Positions 2,047 to 63,150 of a stretch of 64,000 nucleotides of DNA are shown here, one piece after another (the first letter of the stretch is position 1; every line of letters begins with the position of its first letter). The translations under genes and the position numbers were made by a program. Origin of the DNA: Ginglymostoma cirratum (lineage: Eukaryota); contig JAHRHZ010000062.1 in assembly GCA_024137785.1 (NCBI GenBank), forward strand, positions 25,584,533 to 25,648,532, in the 5' to 3' direction. Under the pieces are notes generated by a model. It was not told the DNA's origin. It was given only the letters and a program-made list of their open reading frames with translations, and ran no database searches.

Positions 2047-3178
2047 ATAGAACATAGAACAGTACAGGCACTTCGGCCCACGATGTTGTGCCAACCTATT
2101 ATCCTACTAAGATCAATCTATCCTTCATATCCTACATTTTACTATCATCCATGTGCCTCTCTAAGAGTTGCTTAAAAGTCTCTAAAGTATCTGAATCCAC
2201 TACCAAAATTGCCGCATGCATTCTATACATCCATCACTCTGTGTGAAGAACCTACCTCTGATATCTCCCCTATACCTTCCTCCAATCACCTTAAAATTAT
2301 ACCCCCTTGCAATAGTCATTTCCTCCCTGGGAAAAAGTCTCTGACTATCCACTCTATCTATGCCTCTCATCATCTTGTAAACCTCTATCAAGTCACCTGT
2401 CATGCTTCTTCGCTCCAATGAAAAAAGCCCTAGCTCCCTCAACCTTTCCTCATAAGACCTGCCCTCCAGTCCAGGCAGCATCCTGGTAAATCTCCTCTGC
2501 ACCCTCTCTAAAGCTTCCACATTCTTCCTATAATGAGGTGACCAGAACGGAATACAATATTCCATGTGTAGTCTAACCAGAGTTTTATAGAGCTGCAGCA
2601 TAACCTCACGGCTCTTAAACTCAATTCCCATGCCAATGAAAGCCAACACACCGTACGCCTTCTTTACAACCCTATCAATGTGGGTAGCAACTTTGAGGGA
2701 TCTATGGATGTGGATCCCAAGATCCCTCTGTTCCTCCACACTGCCGTGAATCCTGCCCTTAACCTTGTATTCTGCATTCAAATTCGGCCTTCCAAAATGA
2801 ATGACTTCACACTTTTCTGGGTTGAATTCCATCTGCCACTTCTTTGCCCAGCTCTGCATCCTGTCAATATCCCGCTGCAACCTACAACAGCCCTCCACCC
2901 TGTCCACAACTCCACCAACCTTCGTGTCATCGGCAAACTTACTAATCGACCCTTCTTCATCCAAGTCATTTATAAAAATCACAAAGAGCAGAGTTCCCAG
3001 AACAGATCCCTGCGGAACACCACTGGTCACCAAGCTCCAGGCTGAATACTTTCCATCTACTACCAACTTTTGTCTTCTATTGGACAGCCAGTTTTGTATC
3101 CAGACAGCCAAACTTCCCTGAATCCCATGCCTCCTTACTTTCTAAATGAGCCTACCATGTGGTACGTTATCGAATGAT
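2047..3178 (-). mobile_element. CR1-clade (HER1-like) LINE, 5'-truncated, RT 3' end
   Basis: ORF 2200..3111 with SGVPQGSVLG, FINDLD, SKFADDTK, LERVQRRFTRM, DLIEVYK; microsatellite-like tail (minus GTTCTAT repeats) near 2047-2060. Confidence 0.93.
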
Positions 3179-5788: not shown

Positions 5789-6102
5789 TTAGAATGCCAG
5801 ACGCATATTTTTTTCCATAAATTCTCTTGTTTCTGGGTGAATAAACTCACATCTGATTCCTATCCCATTATCAGATTCTACTGGTGTAAATTCTATACTT
5901 GTTAGAGATGAGAAGAGACCATTTTCAGCAACTTCAGGCTTAGTATAAGCCACCAGACCCATGAAGGGTTCCTCTCCTTTAAACCACCTAATTTCAATTT
6001 CTTGAGGTGCATAATCAGTCAGTGAAACGGTGAAAGTTGCCACTTTGTTTTTCTCTGGTTTCACTGGGTTACATTTGATTTCCGACAGAGTGGGAGGGGA
6101 AC
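5789..6102 (-). CDS. Gene A exon 10 (terminal coding): post-TM C1-like domain 6
   Basis: Acceptor ttctgttttaag|GT. SPPTLSEI..ATFTVSLTDYAP..IRWFK..NGLFSSLTS..IRCEFIHP..LAF then TAA at 5791-5789. B-strand Cys replaced by Val. Confidence 0.88.
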
Positions 6103-9100
6103 CTTAAAACAGAACAGAACGTACAAATTATGAGTGTGCACATTATCTGCAGTGATAGTTTGTCTCAATGTTACAGTAAGTGTTCTTGACATAACTTCAG
6201 CAAATTCAATTGTTCAATTTAGCAAATTCAGTTACTACTTCATATGGAACAGTAAGAATCAGGAGATATCAAACATTGGACCAAGAAATATTTGGGATTG
6301 ACAAACGAGATAAACATTCAAAGGGATATCATTTTTAATAAGGCCATGAAATAGATTTCCCAGATCATTTGCACTCCAGAATACTAAAAGAATTAGTAGA
6401 AGCATTAAAAGGCTTCAAAAAAATTGTGAATTCTTCCAAGTTGACTGGAAGGCAAATATTATTTTTCCTGCTTAACAGTTCAGAATATAGCATGAAATTA
6501 CTGAACTGTTAGAAAAGCATGGATAGTCAACTTGGATTTACAAAAGGTGGCTCATCTTTTGGTGAGGCCTAAAGCACCCTCTGCATAGTAAACAACTATG
6601 CATCCAAAAAGGTGGTTTTAACAGCATATAGTCATGACATTTGGGTGAGCTCTCAGTAATGGCTTCAAGTTCCGCATCTGGGATCATGCTTTGATTAGTT
6701 ATTCTCACTAAGTTTAGAATGGCAAAGAGTAATGTTTGATCATCTGGCAGGTTCTAGTCTTCTGAAACCAAAGAATTGGTGCATTCACCCATCCAGGCCC
6801 ATTTATAACAAATAGAAAAGCACTGGAAATAGGTATCCAGGAGCAGACTGGCACTTTCCTAATTGACATTTTTTTTCTTAGAAATCCATGATAAATTCAA
6901 TTCTGTTCTTGTTTCTTAAATTATTCAATGCTCTAGTTCTACAGTAATTAGGATTTTGTACAATTTTAAACACACCTGGAAGATTCAAACACAGCTGCTT
7001 TTGAATAGAATTGGGTGAGGCTTCATGCATCACTTCGAATACAATTTCCTTATTATAATCCAAAGCTGTTGGCGTTAACTCCATGCTGGAAAATAACTGA
7101 TAATAGCCACTTTTTTCCTTCTGAGGCTCTGTGGTTGTGATTCCACTAGAGACATACTTGTTATTCATTAGCCATCTGGCAGAGGATACATTTCCAGAAA
7201 AATTTTTTACGTGGCATTTAAGAACAAGACGTTTTCCATAGGATGGAATTTCTGGCTCTGGAACGATGTCAGAAACTACTGGAATTCCTGTTTGGAAACA
7301 ACAAGAAATTGTTCATCAGGCTTTTGTATCCCACATCCAAGCTGATTCCACAACAAGATCTATTGTACCCATATCACTACTCATTATTGCACTGGTACCT
7401 TCCCTATTTAAGAAATCACCTCATTTTCCTTTTACTATTCCCCAGGAACGTTAAACATCCTTGCACATTCTTATCACATTTGGATTATCGCTCACCTCTT
7501 CAATACCCTGCACTTCACATTTCTTTTGATTTTTTTTAAAACTTCCCTTCAACTGAACACTCCCCCTTGAGCTAATTAGTTTAAAACCCTTTCTACAAAG
7601 TTAATTATACAATTTTCCAGGATACTGGTCCCAACATAGTTCAAATGAAACCCATCCCAACAAACTTCTCTTTCTCCAGTCCTCCAGAACTCATTTCTCC
7701 CAAGGCATCTTTGAACCATACATTTACCTCTTTAATCTTAATTATCTTTTATCAATTTGCATCTGGCTCAGACATTAATCTGAGGATTACCACCTTTGTG
7801 ATTGTGTTCAATTTAGCCCTGAAGTGCTCATAATCCCCTCAGCAAAACCTCTTTTCCTAGTTCTACTTATGGCATTTACGCATATGTGGACCACAACAAT
7901 TCGATCCTTCCCTTCCTGTTTCAAGTTCCTCTCCAGTCCAGAAAAGATGTCCTGAATGTGACACCAGGTAAGGGACACAGCCTTTGGAACTGTTGTTGTT
8001 GCAGGAGAAAGTGCCATTACCTAAACTATGCAATCCCTATTATTACCTCATTTCTCTTTTCTCCACCAAGCAACTCTCAAAGAGCACACCCCCTCAAAAA
8101 AACAACTTAACTGCCACTCATGAACATGGTGTGGTTAGTTTTCTCATACACCCTAAAGTCTATGACCCTGTCAATACCAAGAGCAACTTCATACCGTTTT
8201 CAATAAGGTGAATGGTTGAGGCTACTCCAAAGCTAAATTGTGAATCCAATACATGCCACACTCTCAGTCACACACTCCTGCTGCAGACCACAAACATATT
8301 TGATGTCATTAACTTAAAGGGTGTGACTTTCTCCTGCAAGTGTGTCCAGTATCTCTCTTCATTTTTGATGTGTCTCAGTGTCCACAGTTCACAGTCCAGC
8401 TCGTTAACTGAGCTTAAGTTCCTCAAGCAACCACTACTTGTGCAGATATGGTGCATCACAGATGTACCTGTGTCCACCAGTTCCCAAAGCTGCCAACCAC
8501 CACCTGCCCAGTCACCTCTATTATATTCAATTAATTAACGAGTCTGTTAAATATTTTTAAAGGTGAACTTCTTAACTATACTCTTCAGCTGTATTAATGT
8601 CTCCTGAATGAAATTAACTGACCAAAAGACATGGAGGAAATACCCACCAATCACCTAATTGTTTTCCTGTAATATCACACTTTGGCTGTTAAAGGAAGAA
8701 ACAAGTTAACAGATGTCTCTGACACTGGTTTTTATCTCTCACTGTTACTGCTCTTCTCACACAGACACCTACTTTCATGGCTCTTCATGCTGACTCCTCA
8801 TTCTCTTACACTGTTTTGAAAGCATGAGCTCCTTCGCTTCAGTTGTGCTGATTTACTCCAAACTCCTCCCAGTTTGCTTCACAGTGACTTTGCTGCACAA
8901 TCCTCCTAGTTCCCTTCACTGCAATTCTGACTGTTGCATACTCCTGCCAGTCCTCTCCGTTTTCTGCCTGTTAATCAGTTCTCAATTTATACTCGTACTT
9001 TTCCCATCAATCCATCTGCTGTAATTCAATTACTAGACTCCTGTGTGGAAACTAAATCAAACATTTGCTGAAAATCCAAAATACATTACATCTACTGGTT

Positions 9101-12100
9101 CTCCTTTTAGTTACACTAATTTCATTTTGTTCCTCAGATTCACAAGTCCTAAGTTATCTAGTATTTAAAAGATTTTCCGTATCTTCTCCCATGAAGATAG
9201 CCACAAAGTAGCAACTTAATTTCTTTGTCATTTTTTTAAAAAAACTATAAATTCTCCTGTCCTCCCTGCTGTAATGGGTTTGTACTTGTCATAGCTAATC
9301 CTTTCCCTTTTACATACCCAAAAATGTTTTCACAGTCCTGCTTTATGTTCCTCTCTACATTTTTATTTTTTATGTTCTTAAACCAGTTTCTGGGACTTTT
9401 GTGGAGTTCAAAATTGCTCCCAATCCTCAGAACTGCCACTTTACCTGGATTCTATGTAAGCCACTTCTTCTGTTCTAATGCAATCTTTAACTTTTTTCAT
9501 TAACCATGTTTGGTTTACATTTCCTTTTGAATATTTGTTCTTTCGAGGAATGTACATCTGTGATCAACCATTTGGTGGTTCAAAATAGCCTGATTTAGAC
9601 TTGGCTCCTCAATGTACTGCTCCAGAAACTCATCTCGTACACACTGCAGCATTTCAACCTCTATACCATTAAATAAAAACTAAAAGAACTGTGGATGCTG
9701 TAAATCAGGAAGGAAAACAGAAGTTGCTGGAAAAGCTCAGCAGGTCTGGTCGCATCTGTGAAGAAAAATCAGAGTTGACATTTCAGGTCCAATTACCATT
9801 CCTCAGAACTCAGAACTGAGGAAGGGTCACCCGACTTGAAATGTTAACTCTGATTTTTCTTCACAGATGCTGCCACACCTTCTGAGCTTTTCCAGCAACT
9901 TCTGTTTGTGTTCCATTGTATTAATGTTGATTTAGTTTTTCCCTAGGGTGGGGGAGTTCAAAAGTAGGGAGTGTATTTTTAAGGTGAGAGGGGATAGATT
10001 TAAAAGACACCTGAGTGGCACCTTTTTTCACACAGAGGGTGGATTGTATGTGGAATAAATTGCCAGAGGAGGTGGTAGACACTGGTACAGTCACAACATT
10101 TAAAAGACATTTGAACAGGAACACCATTAGGAAAGGTTGAGAGGGATATGGGTCAAACCAAGGCAAGTGAGACTAGTTTAGATTGGGAAACTTGGTCAGC
10201 ATGGATGAGTTAGACTGAGGGGTCTGTTTCCATGCTGTATGACTATGCATAAACTGAAGCTGACCGTTAAACTACAATTATACATGTTACATGCATTTTT
10301 AAATTTCTGATTTTTACACCATGCCCAACATTACCACCACAGTTGGTAGTCTGTAAAAAAGAAACTCTCAGAATGTTTTACTCCCTTTGCTGCTTTTTAA
10401 TTCCAGCCAAACTGATTGTAGATCTTGGATCTTTGATGCAACATCCTTTCTTACTAATTTTTACTTTGGTTCACTTGCATTCATTTTATTTTACTCGCGT
10501 TAGCCATTGATAAACCTTACAAGCATTCAAACTAGGAGAAGTAGAGGCCGTTTGGCCCCCTTGGACGTTCTCTGCTCTTCAATAAGATCATGGTTGGTCA
10601 GTTTGTGTTTCATATTCCACATTTCCCATTTACTCATGATAATATTTTATTCCTTGGTCTAACAAAAATATATTTATCCTTGCTTAAAAGTATTCAATGA
10701 GCTGCCTCTGCCACCTTCTTAAGCAGAGTTCTAAAGTCTCTCAGTCCTCAGTGAAAAAAATTCTCCTCCTCCGTTTCCTAATGGGCAACACTAGATTTTT
10801 TTTGAATAGTGTTCCCTAATTCTGTACTCACCCACAAAACAAAATATTCTTTCCACACCCGCTCAAATCAAGGCCATTCAGGATTTATACCAAGTCACCC
10901 CTCACTCATTTCAACTCCAGTGAAAACAAGCCCAATCTGTTCAACATTTCCTCTTAGTACAACCACTAATTCTAGGTATAAATCTAGTAATCTATTTCTG
11001 AATCCGTCCAAACATTTACATTCTTCCTTAAACAAGGAGGCCAAAACTTCACACAGTATTTGTGATGTGGTCTCACTCATGTCCTATAGAACGAAGCATA
11101 ATATCCTTACTTTCATATTCAATTCCTCTTGTAATAAAGGTTAGCATTCCGTTAGCCTTACTGATTATCTGCTTTACCTACATACTAAATCTTTTGTGAC
11201 ACGAACCAATGTATCCAAATCACTTTGCACCTTGGAATTCTTCAACCATTCTTCATCTAAGTAATATTGTGCTTCTTTATTCTTCTCACCAAAGTGAGCA
11301 ACTTCACATTTTCCACATTACATGCCATCTATTATAGCGTACAGGATTTAGTGATGTCAACTATGCATTCAGATACATTTTGACTTGGGGACATCTACCA
11401 CCAGTAACTGATATCATTAAGTTTTTAGGTGTAGGTGGCCATTTTGACAGCTATCTTTGAATTCAGGCCATTTAACCCATTTTTATTTTTCTCGCCAAAG
11501 TGATCAATTCCATATATTTCCGCAGCCTGCTGCATCTGCAAAATATTTGTCCACTCACTCAACCTATATTAGTCTGTGATCTCTTCATGTCCTCTTCAAA
11601 ACAAACTTTACTTTTTTTTGTGCCATATGACAACTTAGCTGCATTTGCTCACCTGATCAAATGTCTTCTGGAAATCCAACTATAATATGTCAATGGGTAT
11701 ACACTGTGCACATACTACTTATTCAAACCAAGTCCAAGAAATTGGTTAAAATTCGTTTTCTTCCTTTCACAAAAAGAATACCGCATCCTCCTAATAACCT
11801 TGACTTTTTCCCCAGTATCCAGGCATAAGCTCCTTAATGATTAATTCTAACACCCCACGACAGACATCATGCTAACTGGACTATAGATACCCAGTTTCTG
11901 CCTCCTTCCGGTCTTGAATAGGCGGGTTACATTTGCTTCTTTCCAGTCTGTTGGAACCTTTCCAGAATTTAGTGAATTTTGAAAAGCCAACACAAATTAA
12001 TCTACTACCTCAGTAACCACCTTTTCTAAAGGCAAAAGGATGACACACATCATGATCCGGGCACTGAGAAACTTGCAGCTCCATCAGTGTGCTCAGTACC

Positions 12101-15100
12101 ACTTTCCTTCCAGTCAAATTTTCACTATGTTCCTCGCTCCCTTCCACCTCCTGATTTATAGCTACTGTTAGAAACCTTTTCGGTAAATCGAGATTAGCTT
12201 TGTCAGCATAAGAAATCTGTTTCACACAGAAAGAAAAATGGAAGCCTCCAGTTATTGGCAAAAGATTTCCCCTGCTACAAGCGGAGTTTAGATTACAAGA
12301 ATTGGCAATGTTTACCAAAAAAAATGGAAACAAGCATAAAGCCAATGAGCAGCATTGCCCTTTGAGCTCATTGAATTATGTCAATTCAAGATTCGTCAGT
12401 TCTGAAGAATGGTGTTCTGAAAAAGGGTCACCAAATCCAAAATGTTAACTCTGATTTCCCTCCACAGATGCTGCCAGACCTGCTGAGATTTTGCAGCAGG
12501 TTCTGTTTTCGTTAAACATTTATCAGTAAACTCAGTGCAGTCAATAAATTGTGATGAAAACAAATTTGAGTTGGATGTCAGATGTCCTGGTGGTTCAGAA
12601 GACCAAGTTCAAACAGAAAATTTCATTTCCTGATCTTCCCAGGAATAGAGATTACATCCAGCAAGCAGCAAATCAGCAAATAGTATGTTGAAGGAATTGA
12701 GCCTGTTGTTGTCAATACTATAGTTCCAAAGGAAGAATAGAAATGTTGTTATATACTTCAGCACAGATTGAGAATTAAAGAAGATTGAAGAGGTGGTGCA
12801 TACAACCCCCTTGGAAACCACTACCAAGAAGAAACTATAATGTCCAATGATTGAAGGCATAGTCAAGAAGAAATTTCCTGGTTCTAGGATCCAGGATACT
12901 GCAAAAATGAAAGTGTCTATTTCCACAGTTGTTCTCATTGAGGAAATCTGGGAGTCTGAAGGTCCTGCAGATTTGCAATGGAGCAAGTGCCTGTTTTAGT
13001 AGGAAACCATACTTCTGCAAAAGGAAATCTGAAGTTTTTTTAAAGGATTACTCTCATCTGAAGGGATTTTCAGCCTTCACATTGTCGGAAACAGAATAGA
13101 AGTCAACAAATTTCAACTCAAAGTTCTATCTATCTTCCAAGCCTGAAGATAATGTGTTTTGAGAGAATAGTCAGACTCCAGACTGCCCAAATGTGTAAAG
13201 AGACTTGTGGAGATACAGCAGTTGCAAACTAATTATGTAGACAAATATATAAATATTAATAATGGGTAGAAAAAAAGACTGGTTGTAGGCATTGTATAAA
13301 GCTGTAAGGATGAATATCCTGGAGTGAATTAAATACCACCTGCTACAATGATGCCATATGGACATGTGGGAGAACAACTTAGGATCTTAAATGAGCAAGA
13401 CCTACTACCTTTAGGTCTTCCACACAGCCTCTGCAATGAGGATAACCTTGTTGTCAAACAATAAACTATATTTCGTTTAAAACAAAGCCTCTTCTCATTA
13501 AACTATCAGGTGGTTTCTCACTGCCACATTGGACCAAACAGTCCCTAGGTGTCTCTACCAGGAGAAAGGATGGTAGCAGAAGTTCTACCGAAAGCTTACG
13601 CAACATAATGAGCAGTGGTGAAGATTCGTCTTACATCAGAGCAGGCAAATGTGATCTGTATCACTGAAGATTCTTCCTGAGAATATCAAGAAATGAAATT
13701 CTCTGTTTGTACTTAATCTTCTGAACCACCTCAGCATCTGACGTCAGAGACAAACCTGTCATCATGACTCTAGAGTATATGCAGTCAGGTCATAGATCAG
13801 CAGGATATTACTGGATGCCTATTCCTCTACCAAATGCCTATTATTACAATTATTTTGACTTTTTTGGCGAATGCATTGACTCAAAAATAACTCACGTTGA
13901 CAACTGAAAATAAGTATTAGAATTTTAAAATAGCTTTATAATCCAATTAGGACTTCAGGTTAAATGCAATCAAGCTTTAAAAATGTGACTGGAAAGCAGG
14001 AAGAATTGCCACTGTTTTTGTATTTTGTAAGCAGGAACACACCACTGCCTCTGGAAAATTTCAATATGATACAACAAATTTATATTTGGAGTTATCGAAG
14101 TGTGGTAAAACTTCACACACATTCCTAAATATAAAAGTGTGTAGCCTATACATAGTCTAGACTAAGTTTAGTACAGAAAAAATATACACTAAATTCATAC
14201 CTCCAAGATGAAGGATGAAACTAGATCTTGAAGGCTTGTGAGAAGTTGGGAAATGTAGAACCTCAACTTTGAATTCCATCTGATGATATTCTGGCTTAAT
14301 TAACAATTTCCATCGACTTTCACAGTAGAAGAAGCCAGTTTGTTCATCTTCCTGAGGTTCAGTAACAGTGATTCCTGCGTCATCAATTCTCTCATTATTT
14401 ATAAACCACATGAACAACGTTTCCTTTGGAAAGAAGCCATATGCATGACATATGATGGTTGCTTCTTTTCCTGCCTCTGGGAATTCTGGTTCACTTTTTA
14501 TGTATTTCACTAATGGTGGAGACACTGTAATAACAGAAAATATATAGTTAGACACAATAGAATATTGCAAGTTTCTATAATAACTCAGGAATTTTAAAGG
14601 TAGTACAGCTACAGGATGAGGTTACAACAAATCTAAAATTTTAGTTATTCACAACTATAAGTTATATCATTGATAATAACCATTTTGAAATATTATTGAA
14701 ACACAGAAGATAGGATTTGGCTATCCAGTCCATCAAGCCTGCTCTGCCATTCAATATGAACATGGCTGATCATCCAACTCAGTGCCCTGTTCCTGTTTTC
14801 TCCCCATATCCTTTGAATAGTTTCAAGGAGGGGTTGGATATAGTTCTTGGGGCGAAAGGGATCAATGTTTTGGCCTCATTCACTTTCTGTGGCAGAGAAA
14901 GTGACAATCTCACCACTCTCTGGGTGAAGAAATATTTCTCATCTCAGTCTTAAATAGCCTACCACTTCCTAGTCTACTCCAGTTAGAATTTTTTTTGAAA
15001 GATTTCCCCTTCAATTTTCTAAACTCCATTTAATGTAGTCCTATACAATTCAATCTCTCTTTAGTCAGTCCTGCTATCCCAGGAATTGTTCTGGTAAACC

Positions 15101-18100
15101 TTTGATGCACTCCGTCCATGGCCATCTTTCCTCAGATAAGGAGAGAAAAATTGTATACAATACTCCAGATGTGGTTTCACCAAGGTCCTGCAGCAAGACA
15201 TTTCCACGCCATACATACAAGTGAAAGTTGTGTGTATCATTATTGTACACTAACAAATTCATACATTTAGCAAGAATGTGTCTTTTACATCAAAATTTTC
15301 TGCACAAAAAATGATCTTTTAAGTTGATATTCTACAAATGTAGGTAGTTAGCATGAAAACAATGCTTTCATTCTGTCTCAGTACATGTGACAAATAATAA
15401 ATCAAAACAAATTAACATGTTGTTACCTGCAGAACTCTAATATGTCAATAAATAAAACAATGAATGATTTCATCAGATTTTGGCATGAAAACGTTTCGAT
15501 ATACTTAGCACAGTTGAATACTGTGAGAAAAAAACTATAGTATTTATCATAATACAGAAATCAGTCGTAACATTTTATTTGCTGTGTTGATGAGAACAGA
15601 AACAAAGTATCAAACAGTTCATGACGTGAAATTTGCCCTTGTATTAGACAACAACATATGAGTATCGCGGTTTCACAGCTACATTCTTGAATAAAATTCA
15701 GCATGCCAATTGTGACAATATGAGGACAAATTAGACAAAAGGATGTGTTTTAAGAAGCATCTTAAAGGACATAAAGGTGGGAAGAGAGACTGAGGATGGG
15801 AATTCAAGAGTTTAGAGCCTCAGCTGCTACAGGCAGCTACCAAATTGGAGTGCAATTACTTTTCATGTAGAAACTAAAAAAAAATTGCATAGCTCCCACG
15901 GCACTAATGAAATTTGGAAAAATCTGACTGGTGACAACTCTCCTCCTTTCACAGATTGACACTCTTCCCTCCCCTCACTATTTACAGCCCAAAGCAGGTT
16001 TTTTTTAAAACCCCAAAACATACCCATTCAGTTCCGAAGGAATTTTGGGCTAGCTACAGGTCACAAATACTTTATTTTCCCCTTGGTTACAAAAGAATTA
16101 TCTTGACGTCACAGAATTGTTTTAGTCTCACAGTAGCTACACTGTAGGACAGAGCACAAATTAAGACATAATCAGAGCTTGTTGGAAAATTGCTCCGATA
16201 ATCATGGGTGACTTTAATTTTAGTATAGAAATAGGCAAACTAAATTGACAAAGATAGCATTGAAGAGTTCATGGAGAATGTTTGGGATAATTTCTTACAT
16301 TGTAAAACCAGGGAATTAGCCATTTTAAATCTAGAATATGTAAATATGACTGGATTGATGAAGAATTTCTTCATAAAATATCCTCGAGAAGAATGATCAT
16401 AAACAATGTGAAGGTTCACTGGTGGTTCTCAGATATGGAGGGATTTACTTATGAGGACAGGTTGAGTAGAATGGGCCTATACTCATTGGTGTTTACAAGT
16501 AAAAGGGTGACCTTATTGAAATATAAATGTTCCTTGGGGGACTTCACAAAGTAGATGCGGGGAGAGATTATTTCCTCTTTTGGAAGTGCCTAGGACCGTG
16601 GGCATAACTGCAGAGTACGGGGTCACCCACTTAGTTCAAAGATAGCAAAGATTTTCTTCTCTCAGGTGCTGGTGAATCTGTAGAATTCTTTATTGCAAAA
16701 GGCTGTAAAGGCCGGGCTGCTAAATGTATTCAAGGTTGAGAAGAATTTTAATCAGTAAGTAAATCAAGGGTAACAGGGAAATGACAGGAAAGAGGAAGTG
16801 AGGATTATCAGATCAACTATGATCTTATTAAATAGTAGAATGGACTCCATGAACCAAATGGCTCCTTCTGCTCTTATGTGTCATAGACTAACATCCTGAT
16901 GAACCTCCTCTGCACCCTCTCTCGTGCAATTGCATCCTTCCTATAGAACAGTGGCCAGAACTGCATAACGTATTCCAGCTGTGGCCCAACTTACACCTGA
17001 TACAGTTTCATTGTAATTTCCCTGTTCCTGTATTCAATGCCTCGACTAATAAAGGTCACTATCCCACATGCATTCATAACTACTTTATTCAACCGTCCTG
17101 TTGCCTTCAAGGATCTGTGGACATGCAAACCAAGTTTCCTCTGACCCTCTATATTTCCTACTATCCTACCATTCATCATTTACTCCATTGTCTTGTTTTT
17201 CCCCCTAAAGTGACTCACCTCACCCTTCTGGTATAATAGATTGGGCAAATTACCAAAAAGTGACTGTAGCAAATTCATTTTAAGATGGATGAAGACAGAT
17301 AATGCAAAATAGTGAGAGAAGTAAAGGCAATGTTGAGAAGATTAGACAAATAAATTTTTGCTTTTTGGAGAGGGGGGCAGTGGAGAGTGGGTGAGCAGAA
17401 ACACTTATGTGGAGCATAAACATCAACATGGACTTCTTCGCCTGTACGTTCTTTTGTTTCTGTATTACTATACAATGTAATTCCAAAACTTTATTTCCAC
17501 ATTAGTTCTGAAATGATGGCCTGCAAGAAGAAAGTGTCAGTTTTGCTTGATGAAATTGTTTTTTCCAATGTTATCTCCACTAATATCAAGTATTCCAAGT
17601 CAAGTCTAATACAGTCAGCTATGGGACAAACCCTATTCTGCCTTCCCCACGATTATGCAGGCTCAGCCTCACTTTCTACCTTTCTTACTTTTTTGCAAAT
17701 ATCCATTCTGACATTTGATGTGATTTTGTCCCCAGCAGGTATTTTACCTGATGCGACACTGCTTATGTGATCCCTCGTAACGTAAACTGGCAATAGGTAC
17801 TGTGGTATTGAACAATCCCACAGACATTAATTACAACTAGCTATTGTGTACAAACATTCACAGGCATACAGAGGAGGTGGCAGCATAGCAAAAACATCAA
17901 TGGATTCGTAATCCTGGCCACAGGCTCAAGTTCTGAGGACATAGCAGATGTTGAAATTGGAGTTCAATTAAAAACAAACAAAACCGTGAATTGAAAAGCT
18001 AGTCTAACAGCAACCATATAACCACTGCCAACCTAGTTTGTTAATGTCATTTACAGAAGGAAATCTGTCACCTTACCTGGTCTTTCGTGTGACACCAGAC

Positions 18101-21100
18101 CCACAGCAATGTGGTTGACTTTTAACTACCAGGCAATTAGGGATGGACACTAAATGCTGACCAAGCCAGCTATACCCATATCCCATGAATGAGTAATAGA
18201 AAGAAGAAAAAAAATCAGTGTTTTGGCTAACATTAAGTTGTTAGAATATTAAAAAAAAAGCACTTCCAATCATGTCATGCTTCAAGTGATCCCAGTTAAG
18301 ATGGGGACTGAGGCCTTTATATGCTTATAATTTCGTGCTATGATACACTGATGATGTCATAAATGCTTCCCTTAAAGGTATAATGGCATACCATATACTG
18401 CCATGAGATAACATTACAGTATTTTTGGCTAGTTTTCTGTTTATGTCATGAATTGCTTTGAGTTGACGGTAACTGAGCTCAAGTTAACAAGGAACTGACT
18501 GAAGTTCTATTTTCGTTTCATTGAAGACTGCTTGCAAGGATAGGAAGCCTTCATTTAATTAATTTGGCTAAAATCCAGAGATTAAAATGCAGTGCATGAA
18601 TCCAGTATATAGATTCCACTAAAATCATGTGTTTCACAAAAAGTTAACAAAGTCAACCACATGTGCACTTTATATTGAACATTGTCATGTTTATTTCAGA
18701 ATATGTCAATAATAACAAAACATCTTACTTACCTAACCGATTCAGTACACGTTCAATTTTTCTGGACCCGGTGATACTTTCATGCTGGAATTCACAAGTT
18801 AATGCCTTCCCCAAATCTTCCCTACAAGGAATGAATTCAAAACGACTTGTGAAATAATAAAGACCATCCTTTCCATAGTTTACTTCAGTATTGGCATTCA
18901 TTTCCTTTGATACAATATCGCACTTTTTCCAGATAACTTTAATGCCTTTTGGAAAGAATGAGTATATTCTGCAAGATGCCATTGTTTGTTCATCAACAAT
19001 CGGACTTTCTGGTGACAGTTTTATATTATCACATTTTGGGATAGCTGTGGAAAAAAAATTGGGAAACATAAATTTTGATTGTTTCATTATAGCTTTGTTC
19101 CAAACTGAAGTTTTTAAGACTTATTTCAAGTTGAAACAGCAAAAAAAAAGGCATCTGCTTAGCAAAGTTACAAATGACTGTACAAATATTTGATTTTAAC
19201 TATGCATCTGAATTGCCACCCTTGTACAAAATGCAAGGTAGCTGAGTAAAGATGATAAGCTACTATCCATTCTAACCCTGGATATACCAATTTGCTGATC
19301 GTTTTTTCTGAATTTCTGAAAAGTTCTCCCATGAGAAGGGCTGTTCTGATGTCATAATGCTAGCCTTCAAGCTTTGGAATTCCTTTCCCAAATTCCTATG
19401 CCTCTCCACCTCATTCTGTTGTTTTGAGATATTTTCCTTATCCTGGTAAAATCTGGTTCTCTGGCTTATTCCAAGTATGCATTCAGGAAACATCTTTTCT
19501 AAATTACAGCAACCACAGCAACAACCCAAAGAATAGGAGACCAGAAGTAAAACACAATAAGATTGCTGCCAAAGTGAAATTCAGAACAAACTGAAGTTAT
19601 AACCATTCAATTCAATATTTTAGACTTGTTCAATAAAATAAATTCAGTGTAGAAAGGAGACCCCAAAAATCATAGCCAGAAACCGTTCGATTTCTTCTTC
19701 TTGATTATTTTTACAGGAAAAATATAATCTCTGAGTAATACTTCATAAATATAACAAATGCGTTTCTCATTCCCAGGTGGAAAGGTCCACCATTTATGTT
19801 GATGCACATACAATTTTATCCAAGATCTTCTAAATGTTGTCATATTTTGAGAGACAATTTAAAAATTGTAACGATATCAACATTAGGTAATGGCTCTTAC
19901 TGCTAATCAACAACTTATCCACTCAATACTGTAGCTCTTAACTTCTAAATGTGCACTTCGATAATTGATTCTATGCTGATTGTTAAGAGATCAAAGCAAA
20001 ATCTGTGGTAAGGCAAACAAAATAAAAATGGAGAAATACTGATAGTACCTGTTAAATTTAGCTTAATCCGTTCACTTATTTGTGTGTCTGTGGCTGGATG
20101 TGTTACTTCACAAATATATGCTGCTTCATGATCTTCATTAATAGTTGGTATAAAATACAAAACACTGGCGACAGTGTGCGTGTGGTCTTCATATTTCAGC
20201 TCAGTTGTACCGTGGGTGTACTTGTGTTGCCCTGGTTCTGTTATTTCAAAGAACTCTGTTTCTCCTGGCTGAAGTTTCCCAATTTCTTTTTTTATTGCAT
20301 TCTTTTCTTTGTACCAGGTGATAGCCAGCGGTCTAGGTTTAAATCCAGTGATCGGACAGGTCACAGCAAGCACTTCTTCATGAATAATACATTGTGGTAT
20401 CACTAGATCAGTCATTCTTGGTCCAACTTTGTTTTTAAAACAAGAGAGAAAATACAATTGTTTTAAAAGTTCTCAGAATTGATAAATATAGACTACTTAA
20501 AGTAAAACCTGACAATTATGCTATCTATTAACTGGACAAAGGGCAATTCAGAAATCCCCATCTTTTGAAAAAAAGCTGCTAATATTGGTGTGTGAGGTTC
20601 AGACTATGTCGGCAGACTGGTCAGCTCGTTTCACAAAATGCTATAATGCAGCTGGTGTATGATTTTAAAACATGGTCTGGTCTGTACTACCACAGTCTTA
20701 TGCAGCAAATGTAACTATGGGAGACTATACAAAATATTGCAACTGTGCAGTTATTAAGGCTCAAATTCAAAAGGATGTATCCAATTAACGAAAAATGGTC
20801 AAATGAGAACAAATAAAATTGCATAAAGGCTCAAAAATAACTTTTTAAACATTTTAATCTTCACAAATGTAGCAAGGAAAAAGAAAAAATGTAAGCAAGA
20901 TACATAATCTACATAATTCGAGAGCAAACATGGGCGAAGATCTTGCTCTTTAAAGAATCTCTCAACCTTAGCCATCAGTACCATATTTCTGCTAAATAAA
21001 TCAAGATTCCATGTCATAAGGCATTACCTTGCTGACTCATGTCAAGACTTCTCCCAACATCATAGGTCTTTCACTGTCATATAAATTTATACCTCCACAT

Positions 21101-24100
21101 GGCAAGCAGTAAAGTCACTTTGTGGAACACTATGTGCTTGAATTAATAAACCAATCACAATAGAAACTGGACTACTTTCTTCACACAGTTTGGGCTTAAG
21201 GTTGGGGACATGTCAGCCAAAGCTTTCTTCATCTGTTCTACTTTGAAAAATAAAGCATTGTCATGCAAGCCAGTACAAGTACTGAAAAATGCAATTCTTT
21301 TGATTTTGTGAGCATGATAGTTGTACAGGAATGCAGAGGCGTAAACGCCCGAGTGGAGTGAGGGCTATGCCTACAATTAGGATTACTATATGTATGTTGC
21401 CTGGTGTCCACAAATATCTTTAGAAAATGATATAGTTCTATAACTGATTCCCGCTAATATTTTAATCATGTTGAATGCAAGCAGACAGAGCTGTTCCTGA
21501 TCATTTGAAAGATGGTGGGCCAAGATCTTTATGACGATATAGTTCCTACTGATCACTTAGTCATTATTTATTTTATTGTCAATTCATTCAAAAATAGAGT
21601 TTTTTTTAAATTTACAAGTAATAAATATAAACTGATCCTTAAAGTTCTCCAATAATAGACAATTCCACCTTCCAGTAATATGGAAAAGTACAAAAATGGG
21701 CTTATATATGTAACCAATAGAGACTTTGCACCAGTCTTCATGTTGGAAGACACCAGTAGCGTACCAGAACTTCACGAGTCTGGGTATAGAAGTGAGTGCA
21801 GTGGCCGTCCCTAAGCAGAAGGTGCTGAGGAAGCTGGAAGGTCTGAAGGCAGCTGAACCACCCAAATTGGATGGACTACACCCAGGGTTCTGAAGGAGAT
21901 AGCTAAAGAGTTTGCAGAAACATTAATTTGATTTATTGTTGTCACATGTACCAAGACACAGTGAAAAGTATTATTTTGTGCACTAACCAGAGAAATCATA
22001 CCTTAATTTTAATGTGAAACAACACTGTGCTTTGAGTAGTATAGCTGCAACCCAATGACTCAAAATGTTTAGCTCAATGAACAGGTTTTACTGTTGTGAC
22101 CATTACTACTTCTACAATAGCCAAAACAAGTGAATTGAACCTGTTATTAAAGCCTGTCACATTAGAATCAACAAGTGGAAGTATGTCTGGATTCTACATG
22201 AAAGGAAACACGCTGCTCTGATTCTCTGGTAAAAAGGTGATAAAGTGGAGGTCAAAATCAAGATCTGTGAAGCAACTTTGAAAGCAAAAATAATTGTTCT
22301 ATCTATTCCAGGGATGTCAATAATAGATTTTTGCCCAACCATGTACAAGATTGAAATTACAGGAAATTCAATAATAACTGTGGTCACTCATACAATTGTC
22401 AGAAGTCAAAGCAAATTACTTTTTTGCAGCATGAAGCCTATGCATAATGATCCTCCGATTCTCAATAAACAATCGTTTTCCTGTTAATGTGTACTTATGT
22501 CTTTACTTCATTTTTTTTTCTTAGAGTCTTGTGGCTCCCAATGCTTATTTTAAAAACACTCTTCAACTCATAAAAAGGTTGTCAACCGCTGGTCTAAATA
22601 CACAAGATTAAGAAATTATTCACCAGTGTGTAACAATGTAACATCTGCTGTCTACATTTTTCAATCCTGCTTCATTCATTGTACAACTACTATAACAAGG
22701 TTGTGAAATACACAACATTGGGGCAGTGGAAGCAGAGGAGGGTGGGCTGAATAGGCTGGGGCTATCTTCCCTGGAATGTCAGAGGTTGAGGGGTGGCCTT
22801 ATAGCAGTTTATAAAAATCATGAGGGGCACGGATAGGGTGAATGACAAGGTTTTCCGCCCCAGGATAAAGGAACGCAAAACTAGAGGGCATAAGGTTAAA
22901 GATGAGAAGGGAAAGATTTAAAAGGAACTTAAGGGACAACATTTTCACGCAGAGGGTGGCGTGTGTATGGAATGAGCTGCCAGAGGAAGTAGTGAAGGCT
23001 GGTACAATTGGAGAGAGATGATTGGTGGTGAGGGGAGAAGAGAGGTTGAGAAGGCCAGACCTTCATGGTGACCTCAGCTGGTGTGGGAATTGGACTTACA
23101 CTTACACTGCTGACGTCACTCAGCATCACAAACCAGCCACCTAGCTAACTAAGCAAACCAATCTCCGTGTGCAAGTGTACATACATATCTCTTCATAAAC
23201 AAAATTTCTTTGGATATGTTTGATTGGCATCACTTGTAATTACTTACTTCCTTCAACTTTCAGGCAAGTCTTCTTAATTATAGGCATTTTGAGAGCACTA
23301 TGGTGGACTTGAACCTGGAGGATAGCTTGATTGTCTGTATATATATCAGGCCAGAACAAAACTTCACAATTCATGCTGGTGCTACCATCGTTGTTGTGTT
23401 TAACAGTCGGCACCTTAAAATTAAAGGATTTATCTTCTTCAATTTGAGATGTATGTTTTGAAATTAGTTTCTGCTGCTCATCCAGTCCAGAATCCTGTAA
23501 GCTCTGAGGTGTAGAGCTCCATGAATAAATTACATTTGGTTCACTATTTTTTCTTTGCAGCAACCAACGAATAGAAATGTTCTCAGGTCTATATCCGGAA
23601 ATCTGACAATTCATGAGAGCCTCTTGGAGATGTATAATTCTTGGAGGTTGGCTGATAGTGGAAACTTTTGGAGGAACTATAAAAGAAACACCAGGATATT
23701 TATCCATTCTATACCACAGGGTTGGTCATCTCAAAACATCAACATTAATCTATCCTATGACAAAATACTGTTTACTGGAATAACAAAGATCAACAACAGT
23801 AGGTTCATATATAAATAGTAATGAAATTAAATAACATTTCTCACTGAAATAAATTTGTCTTGACCAAAATAATCATTAGCCTCCTTAAAGTTAAAATAAA
23901 GTTCTGGGAGATAGGGAGACACAAACAGACAGATCATCTACCAAATAGAAAATTAAGGCAGAAGAGCAGAAAATTTAGGACATAAGGATACAAATAAGTA
24001 AACAAACAGAGTAGCAGATTCAGTAACGTATGGTGGAAGCCAGTGTTTCACAATATAATGAAAAAGATCATTCGAGCAAAAGATTGATCTCCAGGGAAAT

Positions 24101-27100
24101 CAGGTAAAGAGAGGGGTATGGGGGAGAAAAATCAGTAGACATAAGATCAGACAACAAACACAATGTGAGTCACAAATCCCCAGAAGGGAGAGAGATGACA
24201 AAATAGAAACACATTATGCACACAAAAGATAGACAAAGCTATGGTGAATTGACACAGACAGAACAAAGATTAACAGATCAGTTCATGAGCTCAAAGTACG
24301 TTTAAAAAGTGTGAGATAGTTGTGAAAACAAAGAGGTGACAGCATGACTGTTCATACAAAACTAGGGTAGCAAAGAAGTGGTCATTTTTGAGCTTCTTTC
24401 CCTGCATTTAATTTGCTCCTCGGTTCGGAGCTATTTCATCTTGAGTCAAATGCTGAAGCCAGAGAACAGAAGTCACTGTAAAGATATCTAATTTTCCTCC
24501 TTTACTGGACATTTGTAGCTTTAAACTAAATTGTTCAGATATAAACAAATCCAAAGTAGCATTATTTTTGAAAAATATTTAATTTGGTAACTTTAATCTA
24601 ATGATTACTTTGTCATATTATTATCCACCGATCATTTACAAATACTTAAAAGTTTTACTGAAAATCTGGTTTGTTTTATGAGCTAACCCATGGTATTGGG
24701 CCTCCTTCCCTACACACTGCACTAATGTTGCTTGTGGTATAATTTTAGTTTCAATGCTCATATAGTCAGATGCTGCCATGTTCCAAGAAAAGCGTTCTAA
24801 ACAAAAACTCCAACAGAGGTGAGCCATCATTCTACAAAGCAAGAATTATTTAATATTTTTCACATTCTGTACTCTTAAAGTGAACTGAAGGATATGTTAC
24901 CTTTTTTAAGGTACTTCAGATACACAAAAAATCCAATGCCTGCAATTGCTGTACACGCCAATATGCTAAGGATTACACATCCAGTTATTATCCCTACTGG
25001 TACAACAACTTCTGGCTCTGTAGGTAAAACAAACAGTTGTTTTAACAGTGAATAGCAAAATAGAACAATATATGAAAATTGAGACTTATTCCAAGACAAT
25101 GGTCTAAAAAGTATATAAAACTACAAATGCATTGTAAGTTGACAGAGAAAACCGAACATCTCACGTTAGCATCTTCACAGGTGTAAGTAACATTAGTTTA
25201 TTTCCAGCAACTGTCAGTCAGCATTTTCAACATTTCTTGAACTTACATGAACTCCAGAATTTGAAGATTTATAAAAATTCTTCAGCATCATCACCAAAAG
25301 GTTGATTAAAAAAAGGGGGGAAAAGATGAATGTGAACTAAGCAGATATTTAACAACAGACTGCAGCAGCTTTTACAACATTAACAAAAGATGAAGAGAAT
25401 TGCTAATGCAAACGTTGGTGCCTTAGAAACAGAGAGAGAAGAAATTATGGAGAAAGAAATGGCAGGGATTACGAACAAATAAAAAAAACAGAAAAAAGCT
25501 CAGCAGGCCTGGCAGCATAGATCGTAGATCACAGAATCATAGAATCCCTACAGTGTGGGGACAGGCCCTTTGGCCCAACAAGTCCATGCTGACCCTCAGA
25601 GCATCCCACCCAGACGCATCTCTCCTATAATCCACCTAATCTACACATCCCTGAACACTACGGGCAATTTAGCATGGCCAATCTACATAGACTGCACATC
25701 CTTGGACTGTGGGACGAAACCGGAGCACCCGGGGGAAACCCGCACAGACAAAGGGAGAATGTGCAAACTCCACACAGACAGTCACCCAAGGGTTGAATCG
25801 AACCAGAGTCCCTGGTGCTGTGAGGCAGCAGTGCTAACCGCTGAGTCACCGTGCCGCCCTCGAAGAGAACAACAGCATCTGCGAAGAGAAATCAGAGTCC
25901 ACGTTTTGGGTCTAGTGACACTTCCTCAGAACAGAGAGAAAAGAATTCAGGGGCTTAAATCCAACAAATTGGCAAGTTGGTCAAATGGACAAACACCTGA
26001 CAGCTGAATTTCAATGCAGAGAAATGTGAGGTAATGCATTTTTTATAGAAGAACACGGAGAGACAATGCAGGCTCAACAGGACAACTTAGAGGGGAGTAT
26101 AGGAGCAGAGGGACCTCAGGATTCAAATGTATAATTCTCTGCAGGTGGCTAGGCAAGTTGAAATTGTTAAGGCAACTTATAAGATCCTGGAGTTTATAAA
26201 TAGAGGCACCATCGACTTGAGTCCCGGTGGATATTTTGCCCGTCCAGTAAGAGGAACAATGATGTCACTGAACAACTGCATGATGTTCTTCTTGGGGAGG
26301 ATGAACAGCCAGAGGTTGTGATCCAAATTAGTATTAACAACAAAGACAGGAAGGGGGATGAGGTCTGCAATCAAAATTGAGTGAGTTATGGAGAAAAATA
26401 GTAAGCAGATTTCTAAAATAGTGATCACCAGATTATTCTCAGTGCCAAAGGAGTAGAAATAGGCAGTTGTATCTTGACTGGAAAGCTCATGAAGGAAGGA
26501 GGGCTTTAGATTCCTGGAACACCAGGACTGACTCTTGAAAGATGGTGCCTGTGCAAGCCATATAGCCCGCCCGTGACAGAACGTGTCTGGTGTTCGTTAC
26601 TGGTGCGGTTGGGAAAGATTTAAAAGAATTCAGTAGGACATTGGAACAGAAGGCAGAAAGTAATATCAAGGTACATAAAATGCCAAAGAGAGGCTGCTAG
26701 TGCAGAAGTAGAGAAAAATAAGTTAATAAGTGAAGTCGGAATAAGGGTGTAAATAATGAAGTCTAAAATCAGAATTAGACTGCACGTATGTGAATTCACA
26801 GAACATCATTAAAATTGGGGAGTTATAGCTACAGATTGCCACATGGAATTACAATGTCTCTATAAAGACAGATACCTGTGTCAAGGAAGAGCAGGTATAA
26901 GTGTTAAATATTCTTGGTTACAAGGTGTTCACAAATGTAAGAAAGGAAATAAAGGGAGGGGTGGTGTTTCAGGTTAAGAAGAACATTGCAATACTAGAGA
27001 AAGAGGATTTTTTCAGAGGTTAGGGACAGAAACGATTTGGTGAGAGCTTAGGAATAAAAAGGGTGCAATTGCATTACTTAGCTCAGACTTCAAACCATCA

Positions 27101-30100: not shown

Positions 30101-33100
30101 ATGAAGCTCAAGTTCTTGTGGAAGGATGTTTTGAGGTTACCTAATAGTTAAATGAATGAACAAACAAACAAATCTAGTTAGGAATCCTGGATTGTTTGAG
30201 ATAATCCAGAATTAATATAAAAATATTAACAATGCCGATTTCAACCACCTTGGCTTGATGATGAACATCTAAGTTACATCCAAGAATGAAATCCAGGTTA
30301 CATCAGCTAGAGTTAGAAGCATGACAAAATTACATAAGTAGTATCTTAAATCCAAATGCATCAACATGATGCTGAAAAAGATCTTGCAGTCAATAGTGCA
30401 AAACATTGCACTCTAAGGGATGTGAAAGGTTGATTCTGAAGAAAGAAGACGAGAGGAAGATAACAGCTTTTGAAATGTGTGGCAGAGGATACTCAGTCAG
30501 TTGGAAGGATACAAAGAAAAGTGATTGAGTTAGATCAAGAGTAGAAGTTCAAAAATCTAAAAGGGCTGTTAATCAGAATTAGAGGGAGAAAGATTGACAA
30601 GTACAGACTTTGGAAACAAAGACACTGCGGCCCTGAACTGAAGCAACTGGAGAAATTAAGCAAACAAAAAAGAAAGGCAAAGAAGAAAGGCTGAATAGAT
30701 GGCTGCTGTTGAAACATGAGGGAAGACTGAACAAAGGCAGAGAGGAAGCAAGACGTTAATCAATATTTGCGGTAACATTATGATGAAAATGAACCAGTAA
30801 TTAACAACAAGGCATTGTCCCAGCTTAGATGGTATACTGGCAATATTGACCAAGTTCTAAAAGGTATGGGACCAGATTTTGCTGCTGTGCGGAATTTTAA
30901 AGCATTTCAAAGACAAGTTTGCTGAGGTATGATCAGAAAACAATGCTGCAAAGAAAGAGTAACTGGGATATTAGTCCAAAGCAGAACAAACACCTTATTT
31001 CTCTAAACAATGAGAATTAAGGATTGAGAACAAAGTGAGAAAGGACAAGGAAGGAACATGAAACAGCCTGGGTTAATTGAGTGTCAAATCAAGTTAAGGA
31101 AGAAAGGTTTGATACAGAAAGGTAGGACTTATACAGTAAATCCTGTAGATCCTCAGGAGTGTTGTGGAACAGAAGGGTCTAGGAGTACAGGTACATAGTT
31201 TGTTGAAAGTGGCGTCACAGGTGGACAGGGTGGTGAAGAAGGCATTTAGCATGCTGGCCTTCATCGGTCAAGGCACTGAATGTGGGAGTTGGGAGCTCAT
31301 GTTACAGTTGTGTGAGTTGTTGGTGAGGCCGCACTTGAAGTACATAAGTACTTAACTTCCGTACAGTTTTGGTCTCCCTGTTATAGGAAAGACATAGTTA
31401 AACTTGCAAGTGCAAAAAGAAGATCTACAAGGATGTTACCAAGACTAGTAGGCCTGAGTTACAGGGAGAAGTTGGCCAGGATAGGACTTTATTCTTTGGA
31501 ACATAGGAGAATGAGGGGCACAGATAGGATGAACGCATATAGTCTTTTTCAACTAGAGGGTATAGGTTTAAGGTGAGAGGGGAAAGATTTAAGAAGGGCC
31601 TGAGGAGCAACTTCTTCATACAGAGACTGGTGTGTACATAGAATGGGCTGCCAGAGAAAGCAGTTGAGCCAGGTACAATAGCAACATTTAAAAAGCATTT
31701 GGATAGGTACATGGACCAAATGCGGACAATTGGAACTAGCTGAGTGGGCACCATGGTCAGCATGGACCAGTTTGAGCCAAAGGGCCTGTTTCCATGCTGT
31801 ATGACTCCATGACTCTATGACACTAAAGCATCTGAAAAGATAGAAAAACAAAGGCAAAAACATTAAGATTTAAAATTTTAAAAACAACCTAAAATAACTA
31901 TTCACAATCAGAAGGAATGAGAGATCACACTAATGAGTGCCCACTTACTAGGGCAGACAGCTTAATTGCCAGTCCTTAACAATAATCTTACTGTTAAAAT
32001 CTACTTATGCTGATTATTAGAATTAACTTTCTGTGGTAAATTTAACAGATAATTAGTATTTAAGCACAGCAAATTCATGGAAATCATGAGAAGGTTAGCA
32101 TTTTTACAAAACTAATCACACAGCTGGGGAAAAAAATCAACTAGCAACTTGTATTGGTTCTCAGTTCACAGGATGTAACTTCTTTGCTTCAAGTTGATGG
32201 TTAATTTACGTTTGTCAGCAAAAGCTCCCTTTTCCTTCTAAGCAAAGTATGGCCCATTGCTACAATTGCTCCTGACTATTTGGAAAGCCAACAGAAGTTA
32301 TGTACTTATGTAGGGATATAGGGCAAGTTTGAAAGGGAAGTGAAACGTTTAACCAAGCAAATGGCAATTTCTTTTCATGTAGCTAAAAAGAGAAAATCTC
32401 ATGACACACAAATTATTTTAAATGCTTTACCACTACAATAGCGCTTTTCAAAATTGTCGAGTGTCAAACTTGTGGAAAGGCAACACATCTTACACAATAG
32501 GAATTACTGAACCACTCAGGACTCTTTTGGTGATATCTTTCTTTCAAGTTTTTTCAGAAAGCTTGATAGGCTATAACTATCATCAAATATTTTGTTCAAG
32601 CATTGTTGAAAACCAAACTTGAAACTCAGTTTTGGAAAGCTGTTAATTGTGGAAAACTTTAAATCAAACTTGATACAGCCATCAAACTCCATAAGCACAA
32701 CTTTCAATAGGGTTTATTCAGTTAGTATAAATTTCAAATTATTACCAAAACAGGGGCACTGAAGTTTCAGTTTAAAAATGGACCAAATAAATCCACAATT
32801 TCAAATTTAAGCACAAATACCATTCAGTTCAAAATTCCCCTTTGCCTATTTCATCAGTGCCACTAACCGTAAACCACAGAATAATTTCAAATGACTACGT
32901 TAAACCTTCATGTGTAATAACAGAGTAAAATTTCTGTGTTCTTTTTGTAGCTGCATTTTCTAACATAAACCAGGCTTCATGTACAAGTTCACGAAAACAT
33001 TAAACATACCTTTGACAGTCAGTTGGGCTTCCAGTTTTAAATCCTTATTAAGTGATTGGTGTTTTACATAGCAGATATAAATATTGCCACTGTCTTCAAG

Positions 33101-40131: not shown

Positions 40132-40807
40132 CCTTCCTAACATCACCATGAAACCATCACCAATTGTTAGAAAAACCCATCTGGTTCACTGATATCCTTC
40201 AAGGAAGGAAATCTGCCATCCCCACCAGGTCTGGCCTAAAAGTGACTGCAGACCCATGGTGATGTGGTAGACTCTTAATTGCCCTCTGAAATGGCCTAGC
40301 AAGCCATTCGGTTGTACCAATTGGTACAAAGTCTCAAAGAAATGAAACCGGACGGATCACCTGGCATTGACCTAGGGACCAGAAAAGACAACAGCAGAAA
40401 CAGCCCTTTCCACCCTGCAAAGTTCTTCTCACTAACATCTGTGAATGGTTTTGATCTCCTTACCTAAGGAAAGAGATAATCAGTCCAGAGCAGGTTCACT
40501 TAGTTGATCCTGGATACAGAGAGACTATCTTCTGAGGAGAGATTGAAAAAGTTGGGTATGTATGCATTGGAGTGTAGAAGAATGAGAGATGGCCTTATTG
40601 AAACAGTGAAACATTGAAATGGAATGTTTCACAGCAGGATTTGAGGAGAAAAGATGGATGGGTAATGTTTGACTCCTTGCTCCCTGTAAAGAGATGATCT
40701 TCACAATATCTAGACGGAGTTGAGACCACTCATGGGAATAGTGAAGGCTCCCATGCCCAGGCGACCCATGAGCTTCATGTTCTGTGCTGCGTAGCCCTCC
40801 TACTACC

Positions 40808-62955: not shown

Positions 62956-63105
62956 CTGCAGACAAACAAAATAAACAGTATTTTTGAGTTTGTATTAATG
63001 AAAATGCCACTATTTTTAAAGATCTCAAGTATCCCTTAATAAATTGTCAACCGTTGTTTTCTTGAACAAAGTGTTGCATTTCACCGACCCTCATTTCCAC
63101 CCCCA

Positions 63106-63150
<45 letters not shown>
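63106..63150 (+). repeat. (CA)n microsatellite abutting a 100-N gap
   Basis: CA run from about 63106 to 63150, then N 63151-63250. Confidence 0.95.

What the first reader, a model, noticed from the sequence alone, without database searches (positions are those of the whole stretch)
5789..23676. Canonical Ig disulfide is kept before the TM but lost in 4 of 6 domains after it
Seen: V and ecto-C1 have both cysteines. After the TM, D1 (ILQVQVHH), D4 (FKVEVLH) and D5 (IVFEVMH) lack the F-strand Cys, D6 (TFTVSL) lacks the B-strand Cys, and D2 and D3 keep both. Replacements are hydrophobic (V, V, F, V), and the core Trp and terminal His are retained, so the fold appears conserved. Established: disulfides do not normally form in the cytosol. 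Inference: independent support for cytosolic location, and natural disulfide-free C1 folds of possible use for intrabody scaffolds. Caveat: N-X-S/T sequons do occur in D1, D2 and D5, so glycosylation motifs do not discriminate.
Basis: partly seen in the sequence, partly recalled or inferred. Interest (0 to 1): 0.72.

Follow-up and report, generated by a model that had tools for sequence, protein, structure and literature searches.

The report
Shark B7-H6 tail sheds its disulfides
This shark relative of the immune ligand B7-H6 carries six antibody-like domains behind its membrane anchor, and four of them lack one of the two cysteines that normally staple such domains, likely because they sit inside the cell, where that staple would not form.

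Summary
Observation confirmed. The region is the tail of a spliced 980-aa gene: signal peptide, V, C1, one membrane helix, then six C1-type domains (D1-D6). Its ectodomain best matches human B7-H6. D1, D4 and D5 lack the F cysteine and D6 the B cysteine. One gene alone is not significant (p=0.21). Across 109 relatives, 112 of 120 C domains before the helix keep both cysteines, against 218 of 444 after it. Sequon density, unpaired cysteines, flanking charge and an acidic dileucine motif in D1 also favour a cytosolic tail. Corrections: the losses are a few ancient inherited events (D1, D4 and D6 shared with amphibians), not four fresh ones. D2 and D3 keep both cysteines almost invariably, and D1 has a conserved extra core cysteine. 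Annotated isoforms without the helix would send the tail through the ER. The scan found this architecture before, in the neighbouring paralogue and in a skate. Three key papers were not readable, so novelty in print is open. The intrabody-scaffold angle is weak.

The parts
38083..38155 (-). Signal-peptide exon (24 aa)
   Evidence: ATG..GT scan; matches N-terminus of whale-shark model P0001
34533..34895 (-). V domain exon, both cysteines (codons 34821, 34590)
   Evidence: Pfam V-set 1.3e-9
33010..33330 (-). Extracellular C1 exon, both cysteines (33262, 33073)
   Evidence: Pfam C1-set 6.7e-11
24901..25017 (-). Transmembrane exon, net charge -2 before and +4 after the helix
   Evidence: Only strong hydrophobic segment after the signal peptide; charges; TM-D1 splice in 3 of 4 runs laid
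23248..23676 (-). D1: B Cys (23608), F site Val (23314), extra E-strand Cys (23368), long disordered insert
   Evidence: AlphaFold mean pLDDT 86.7; top structural match human B7-H6 C1, Z 12.4
23462..23479 (-). Acidic dileucine-type motif EQQKLI in the D1 insert
   Evidence: 14 of 17 orthologues versus 3.2 expected; 29 of 61 distant relatives versus 13.1; near the low-pLDDT loop
20049..20426 (-). D2: both cysteines kept (20358, 20112); most conserved tail domain
   Evidence: splices D1-D2 and D2-D3
18733..19044 (-). D3: both cysteines kept (18973, 18796)
   Evidence: D3-D4 splice
14201..14524 (-). D4: B Cys (14450), F site Val (14267), variable E-strand Cys (14324)
6976..7287 (-). D5: B Cys (7216), F site Phe (7039), variable G-strand Cys (6991)
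   Evidence: splice not tested by RNA here
5789..6102 (-). D6 and stop: B site Val (6028), F Cys (5851)
   Evidence: splice not tested by RNA here

Best explanation
This is a B7-H6-family gene whose six C1-type domains follow a single membrane helix and therefore likely hang in the cytosol, where the B-F disulfide would not form, so one cysteine of the pair has been replaced by a hydrophobic residue in four domains. Shown: exon structure, TM-to-D4 splicing, the residues, the family-wide contrast. Inferred: type I topology; the cysteines that remain are buried free thiols kept for core packing (a lone cysteine with no partner is kept in 30 of 30 D6, 37 of 39 D4 and 32 of 35 D5, so keeping a cysteine does not imply a disulfide). 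Inferred with less support (about 0.4): the tail works as a trafficking and scaffold module, in which the D1 dileucine loop binds clathrin adaptors and sets how much ligand stays at the surface, while the conserved D2-D3 surfaces bind a cytosolic partner.
For: Signal peptide plus one TM, no later hydrophobic segment above 1.44. TM-D1 joint in X14 (1 read), X1 and X2; a 3.5-kb Logan contig encodes a whole 958-aa orthologue. C-terminal flank more positive in 93 of 112 proteins. Both cysteines kept in 98 of 100 V domains, 112 of 120 pre-TM C domains, 39 of 39 IgH-like control domains, but 218 of 444 post-TM domains; per protein, 89 higher before the TM, 12 equal, 3 lower, of 104. Non-canonical cysteines 0.45 versus 1.92 per 100 aa; sequon observed/expected 1.87 versus 1.15. 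Dileucine motif enriched in D1 only. Titin precedent for cytosolic Ig domains with 0-3 core cysteines (PMC5766482, passages).
Against: D2 and D3 keep both cysteines almost invariably (44 of 44 and 41 of 43; 53 of 54 and 54 of 54). The D1 sequon is kept in 14 of 18 orthologues, as often as an ectodomain sequon (14 of 19), and D2 sequons are enriched (1.56). Five database proteins join C1 directly to D1 without the TM. D1 E-strand Cys is kept in 48 of 66. The dileucine motif is absent from 32 of 61 distant D1 and from paralogue C. Topology was not measured. The RNA status of X1 and X2 is a guess by the tool, although their contigs are spliced.
Confidence: 0.72

Rival explanations
1. Dual topology: the same tail is cytosolic in the TM form but secreted in a TM-skipped splice form, where D2 and D3 form disulfides and the D1 sequon is used. 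This would explain which cysteines stayed.
For: RefSeq isoform pairs differing by the 39-aa TM exon in two lamniform sharks (742 versus 781 aa); TM-less C1-D1 joins in 5 proteins including a frog isoform; D2/D3 retention; D1 sequon in 14 of 18.
Against: In X1 and X2 the contigs run through the TM-D1 joint; the C1 exon was outside the stretch laid, so skipping was not tested directly. The isoforms are computed gene models. A secreted form does not explain why D4-D6 would lose the pair.
Confidence: 0.15
2. The retained cysteines are functional redox sites in the cytosol, as in titin: D2/D3 pairs and a D1 B-E pair oxidise under stress and change tail stability or signalling.
For: D1 E-strand Cys appears only where the F cysteine is gone (43 of 56 versus 0 of 4) and falls on the inward register of a confident strand. 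Titin forms non-classical buried disulfides (PMC5766482, passages).
Against: No coupling between D1 B and E cysteines (26/9/17/8, p=0.77). The four F-retaining D1 are one clade. D4 and D5 extra cysteines are not conserved. Sulfur-sulfur distances were not available from the models.
Confidence: 0.1
3. The tail is extracellular or lumenal (helix not inserted, or a separate gene), and the cysteine losses are drift.
For: Sequons are present in D1, D2 and D5.
Against: TM-D1 splice seen; median uncharged stretch of 27 aa with positive-inside flanks; no second helix; unpaired cysteines fourfold higher after the TM.
Confidence: 0.03

Closest known systems
Human B7-H6 (NCR3LG1), ligand of NKp30
   Same: V plus C1 ectodomain is the best PDB match (E=2.5e-32, next family B7-H3 4.6e-17). 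Full-length frog relatives carry the name NCR3LG1.
   Different: The human tail is described as bearing ITIM, SH2 and SH3 motifs (PMC7654602, passages) and, from recall, is Gag-derived, not Ig. Here the tail is six C1-type domains. NKp30 binding of this paralogue is untested.
Titin and other cytosolic I-set Ig arrays
   Same: Tandem Ig domains in the cytosol with patchy retention of B and F cysteines: of 101 I-band domains 21 have three, 43 two, 24 one (PMC5766482, passages).
   Different: These are C1-type, behind a membrane helix, with no conserved G-strand cysteine; no evidence for a mechanical role.
Shark UrIg2 and IgH chains (multi-C1 membrane proteins)
   Same: V followed by many C1 domains.
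   Different: UrIg2 has VJ, nine C1 and then the TM; each solved domain has the canonical disulfide (PMC12227049, passages). IgH-like controls keep both cysteines in 39 of 39 domains.

Membership tests
B7-H6 (NCR3LG1) | V + C1 ectodomain closest to B7-H6 among B7 members | tested here: met
   (whale-shark orthologue, 90-98% identical in V and C1)
B7-H6 (NCR3LG1) | Signal peptide and single TM helix | tested here: met
   (sequence prediction)
B7-H6 (NCR3LG1) | Linkage to KCNJ11 (human adjacency recalled) | tested here: inconclusive
   KCNJ11-like gene on the same contig but 10.4 Mb away
B7-H6 (NCR3LG1) | Binds NKp30 | not testable with these tools
   needs a binding assay; at least four paralogues in this cluster
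C1-set Ig domain (D1-D6) | C1-set profile match | tested here: met
   6 of 6 reach the Pfam cut-off of 21 bits: 21, 32, 31.6, 30, 47.4, 27.9; D1 only just
C1-set Ig domain (D1-D6) | Canonical B-F cysteine pair | tested here: not met
   absent in D1, D4, D5, D6; present in D2, D3. The four are filed as C1-derived, not canonical C1-set
C1-set Ig domain (D1-D6) | Ig sandwich fold with C-strand Trp | tested here: met
   predicted only: D1 pLDDT 86.7, Z 12.4, rmsd 1.7 over 97 aligned to B7-H6 C1, tied within 1 Z with SIRP-gamma, MHC II and V domains; D3-D6 block means 66-89
Cytosolic I-set arrays (titin type) | I-set profile and B/F/G cysteine triad | tested here: not met
   I-set hit only sub-threshold for D2; G-strand cysteine in 5 of 14 D5 only

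The most novel reading that the evidence does not exclude
The ancestral jawed-vertebrate B7-H6 carried a cytosolic chain of C1-type domains, a domain class otherwise known from extracellular and lumenal immune proteins. The chain does double duty: reduced in the membrane form, where the D1 dileucine loop controls surface display of the NK ligand, and oxidised at D2-D3 in a secreted TM-skipped form. The cysteine pattern would be the footprint of one Ig array folding on both sides of the membrane.
Probability: 0.15. Interest if true: 0.78.

Novelty: new variant of a known kind. Interest (0 to 1): 0.45.

Why it matters
It gives sequence evidence that C1-type Ig domains live and fold in the cytosol behind an immune ligand in sharks, rays, chimaera, coelacanth, lungfish, bichir and amphibians. 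It also offers a natural series of the same fold with two, one or no core cysteines, useful for asking what the disulfide buys. The cysteine loss itself is the expected consequence of that topology; the open puzzle is why D2 and D3 never lost theirs.

Tried and rejected
Replacement disulfides in D4 and D5: rejected, cysteines not conserved. Obligate D1 B-E pair: no covariation; geometry not measurable from the model output. Second membrane helix or hidden TM exon between D1 and D6: none. Origin of the tail from the gene's own C1 exon: D1's top fold match is B7-H6 C1, but identities are flat (19-23% to own C1, 18-20% to IgH C) and the tree does not resolve it (the IQ-TREE run timed out); left open. 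Full-length fold search gave only generic multi-Ig hits; Foldseek on D1 mixed V and C1 hits. No run listed was on record as an RNA holder; X15 gave no reads. Gene A D2 was mis-trimmed and corrected. Literature: 10 full-text searches showed no listing on post-TM Ig domains in B7-H6. Flajnik 2012 (PMC3709836), Ohta and Flajnik 2015 (PMC4594805) and Kinlein 2021 (PMC8273117) are not held and they or their supplements may describe it.
Full report
Observation. The quoted motifs lie in six minus-strand exons between 23676 and 5789. With a signal-peptide exon at 38155-38083, a V exon, a C1 exon and a 117-base TM exon, ten exons join through phase-1 GT-AG introns into one 980-aa frame. All six tail exons reach the Pfam C1-set cut-off, D1 only just. 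The canonical sites read C/C in V, ecto-C1, D2 and D3; C/V in D1 and D4; C/F in D5; V/C in D6.

Is the tail really joined to the TM? Four runs were laid on 14100-25700. The TM-D1 joint appears in X14 (one raw RNA read), X1 and X2; D1-D2 in X1 and X2; D2-D3 in X1; D3-D4 in X1 and X14; X15 gave no reads. Joints beyond D4 and upstream of the TM were outside that stretch. Orthologous models of 941-1039 aa have the same order in sharks, rays and chimaera, and one 3.5-kb Logan contig encodes a whole 958-aa copy.

What it is. The ectodomain of the whale-shark orthologue matches human B7-H6 best (E=2.5e-32; B7-H3 next at 4.6e-17). The gene is the middle one of three tandem paralogues with the same layout, and a fourth V-C1 pair lies about 200 kb upstream. 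A profile search returned 150 representatives; 109 have one TM with Ig domains on both sides, with 1 to 14 domains after the TM. Of the 20 looked up by name, members come from chondrichthyans, coelacanth, lungfish, bichir, frogs, newt and caecilian. The other 41 representatives (no TM, several TMs, or Ig on one side only) were left out of the side-by-side counts.

Is the loss more than chance? In this gene alone, no (p=0.21). In the 109 representatives, both cysteines are kept in 112 of 120 pre-TM C domains and 218 of 444 post-TM domains (domains with a gap at either site dropped); 98 of 100 V domains and 39 of 39 IgH-like control domains keep both. Of 322 replaced sites 97% are hydrophobic. 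These domains are related, so I counted changes on a tree of 83 ectodomains: 0 at the ecto-C1 cysteines, and 15, 2, 1, 3, 7, 1 in D1-D6. The D1-F, D4-F and D6-B states are shared with amphibians, lungfish and coelacanth, each mapping to one change; D5-F maps to four and is mostly Cys in amphibians. So this gene's four losses are old inherited events.

Other signs of sidedness. The C-terminal flank of the helix is more positive in 93 of 112 proteins. Non-canonical cysteines run at 0.45 per 100 aa before and 1.92 after the TM. Sequons are 1.87-fold over shuffles before and 1.15-fold after, but within the 17 orthologues the two sides do not differ (1.04 and 1.16). It sits at the end of the low-confidence insert of an otherwise confident D1 model. 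That such motifs bind clathrin adaptors on the cytosolic side is my own knowledge, not tested.

The D4 cysteine is present in 8 of 19 orthologues and the D5 one in 5 of 14, so neither is a conserved replacement bond. The D1 E-strand cysteine is in 18 of 18 orthologues and 48 of 66 relatives, and absent from the four D1 that keep the F cysteine (one clade). It does not co-vary with the B cysteine (p=0.77). The models gave no coordinates, so the distance is unmeasured. This point stays open.

Results against the reading. D2 and D3 keep both cysteines in 41-44 of 43-44 and 53-54 of 54. Lone cysteines are kept as strictly (D6-F 30 of 30, D4-B 37 of 39), which shows that retention needs no partner, but does not explain why D2/D3 never lost one. 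The D1 sequon is kept in 14 of 18 orthologues. Five database proteins lack the TM between C1 and D1, two of them RefSeq isoforms that differ from their partners by 39 aa; such a form would be secreted.

Mechanism. Most likely a type I membrane ligand with a reduced, cytosolic C1-type array. Release from disulfide formation let one cysteine be swapped for Val, Leu, Ile, Met or Phe, and the rest serve as buried thiols (0.72). Function of the tail is inferred: trafficking through the D1 loop and scaffolding through D2-D3, D2 being as conserved as the ectodomain (0.53 versus 0.51-0.55) (about 0.4). Rivals: dual topology (0.15), redox switch (0.10), extracellular tail (0.03).

Known and new. Patchy cysteine retention in cytosolic Ig domains is known from titin (PMC5766482, passages). 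UrIg2 has its C1 array before the TM (PMC12227049, abstract and passages). Human B7-H6 tail motifs come from PMC7654602 (passages). PMC10751288, PMC11599192, PMC6514059 and PMC10450919 were searched for terms only and gave references. Ten searches showed no listing on this architecture, but the three most relevant papers are not held, so absence from print is not established. The scan noted the architecture before in the neighbouring paralogue and in a skate. The finding is real and supports cytosolic C1-type domains, but it is a corollary of that architecture.

Noticed in passing
window 22420 to at least 22774, minus strand: An unannotated exon splices into D2 in X1, X2 and X14 (depth 15.3 versus 14.6 for D1-D2 in X1). 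As a first exon it would give a signal-less D2-D6 protein from an in-frame ATG at 22432; as an internal exon it carries stops and would end the protein after D1.
   Followed up: partly
window 52486-64000 and L011-L012: Upstream paralogue A, V-C1-TM plus seven domains; D1 has lost both cysteines and the Trp.
   Followed up: partly
L008-L010 (7-28 kb downstream of the window): Paralogue C keeps both cysteines in D1 and D6 and lacks the dileucine motif, so it may be nearer the ancestral state.
   Followed up: partly
G000:C62:25827000-25832000 (L028-L029): Fourth B7-H6-like V and C1 exons, with no tail-domain exon found in the 200 kb scanned.
   Followed up: no
about 62.3 kb downstream of window start (L004): Exon resembling an IFITM/CD225 protein (label recalled, not tested).
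   Followed up: no
P0060, P0073, P0090, P0108: Chondrichthyan paralogues whose tail is D1 repeated up to seven times, with Trp at the B-cysteine site.
   Followed up: no
P0085, P0117, P0120, P0103: Frog and bichir relatives with 7-10 divergent post-TM Ig domains; the frog group also lacks the B cysteine in an extracellular C domain and holds several of the few pre-TM losses.
   Followed up: no
window 2200-3141, 39240-40136, 43936-44409 and others: LINE-type reverse-transcriptase fragments in introns and intergenic DNA (label recalled).
   Followed up: no
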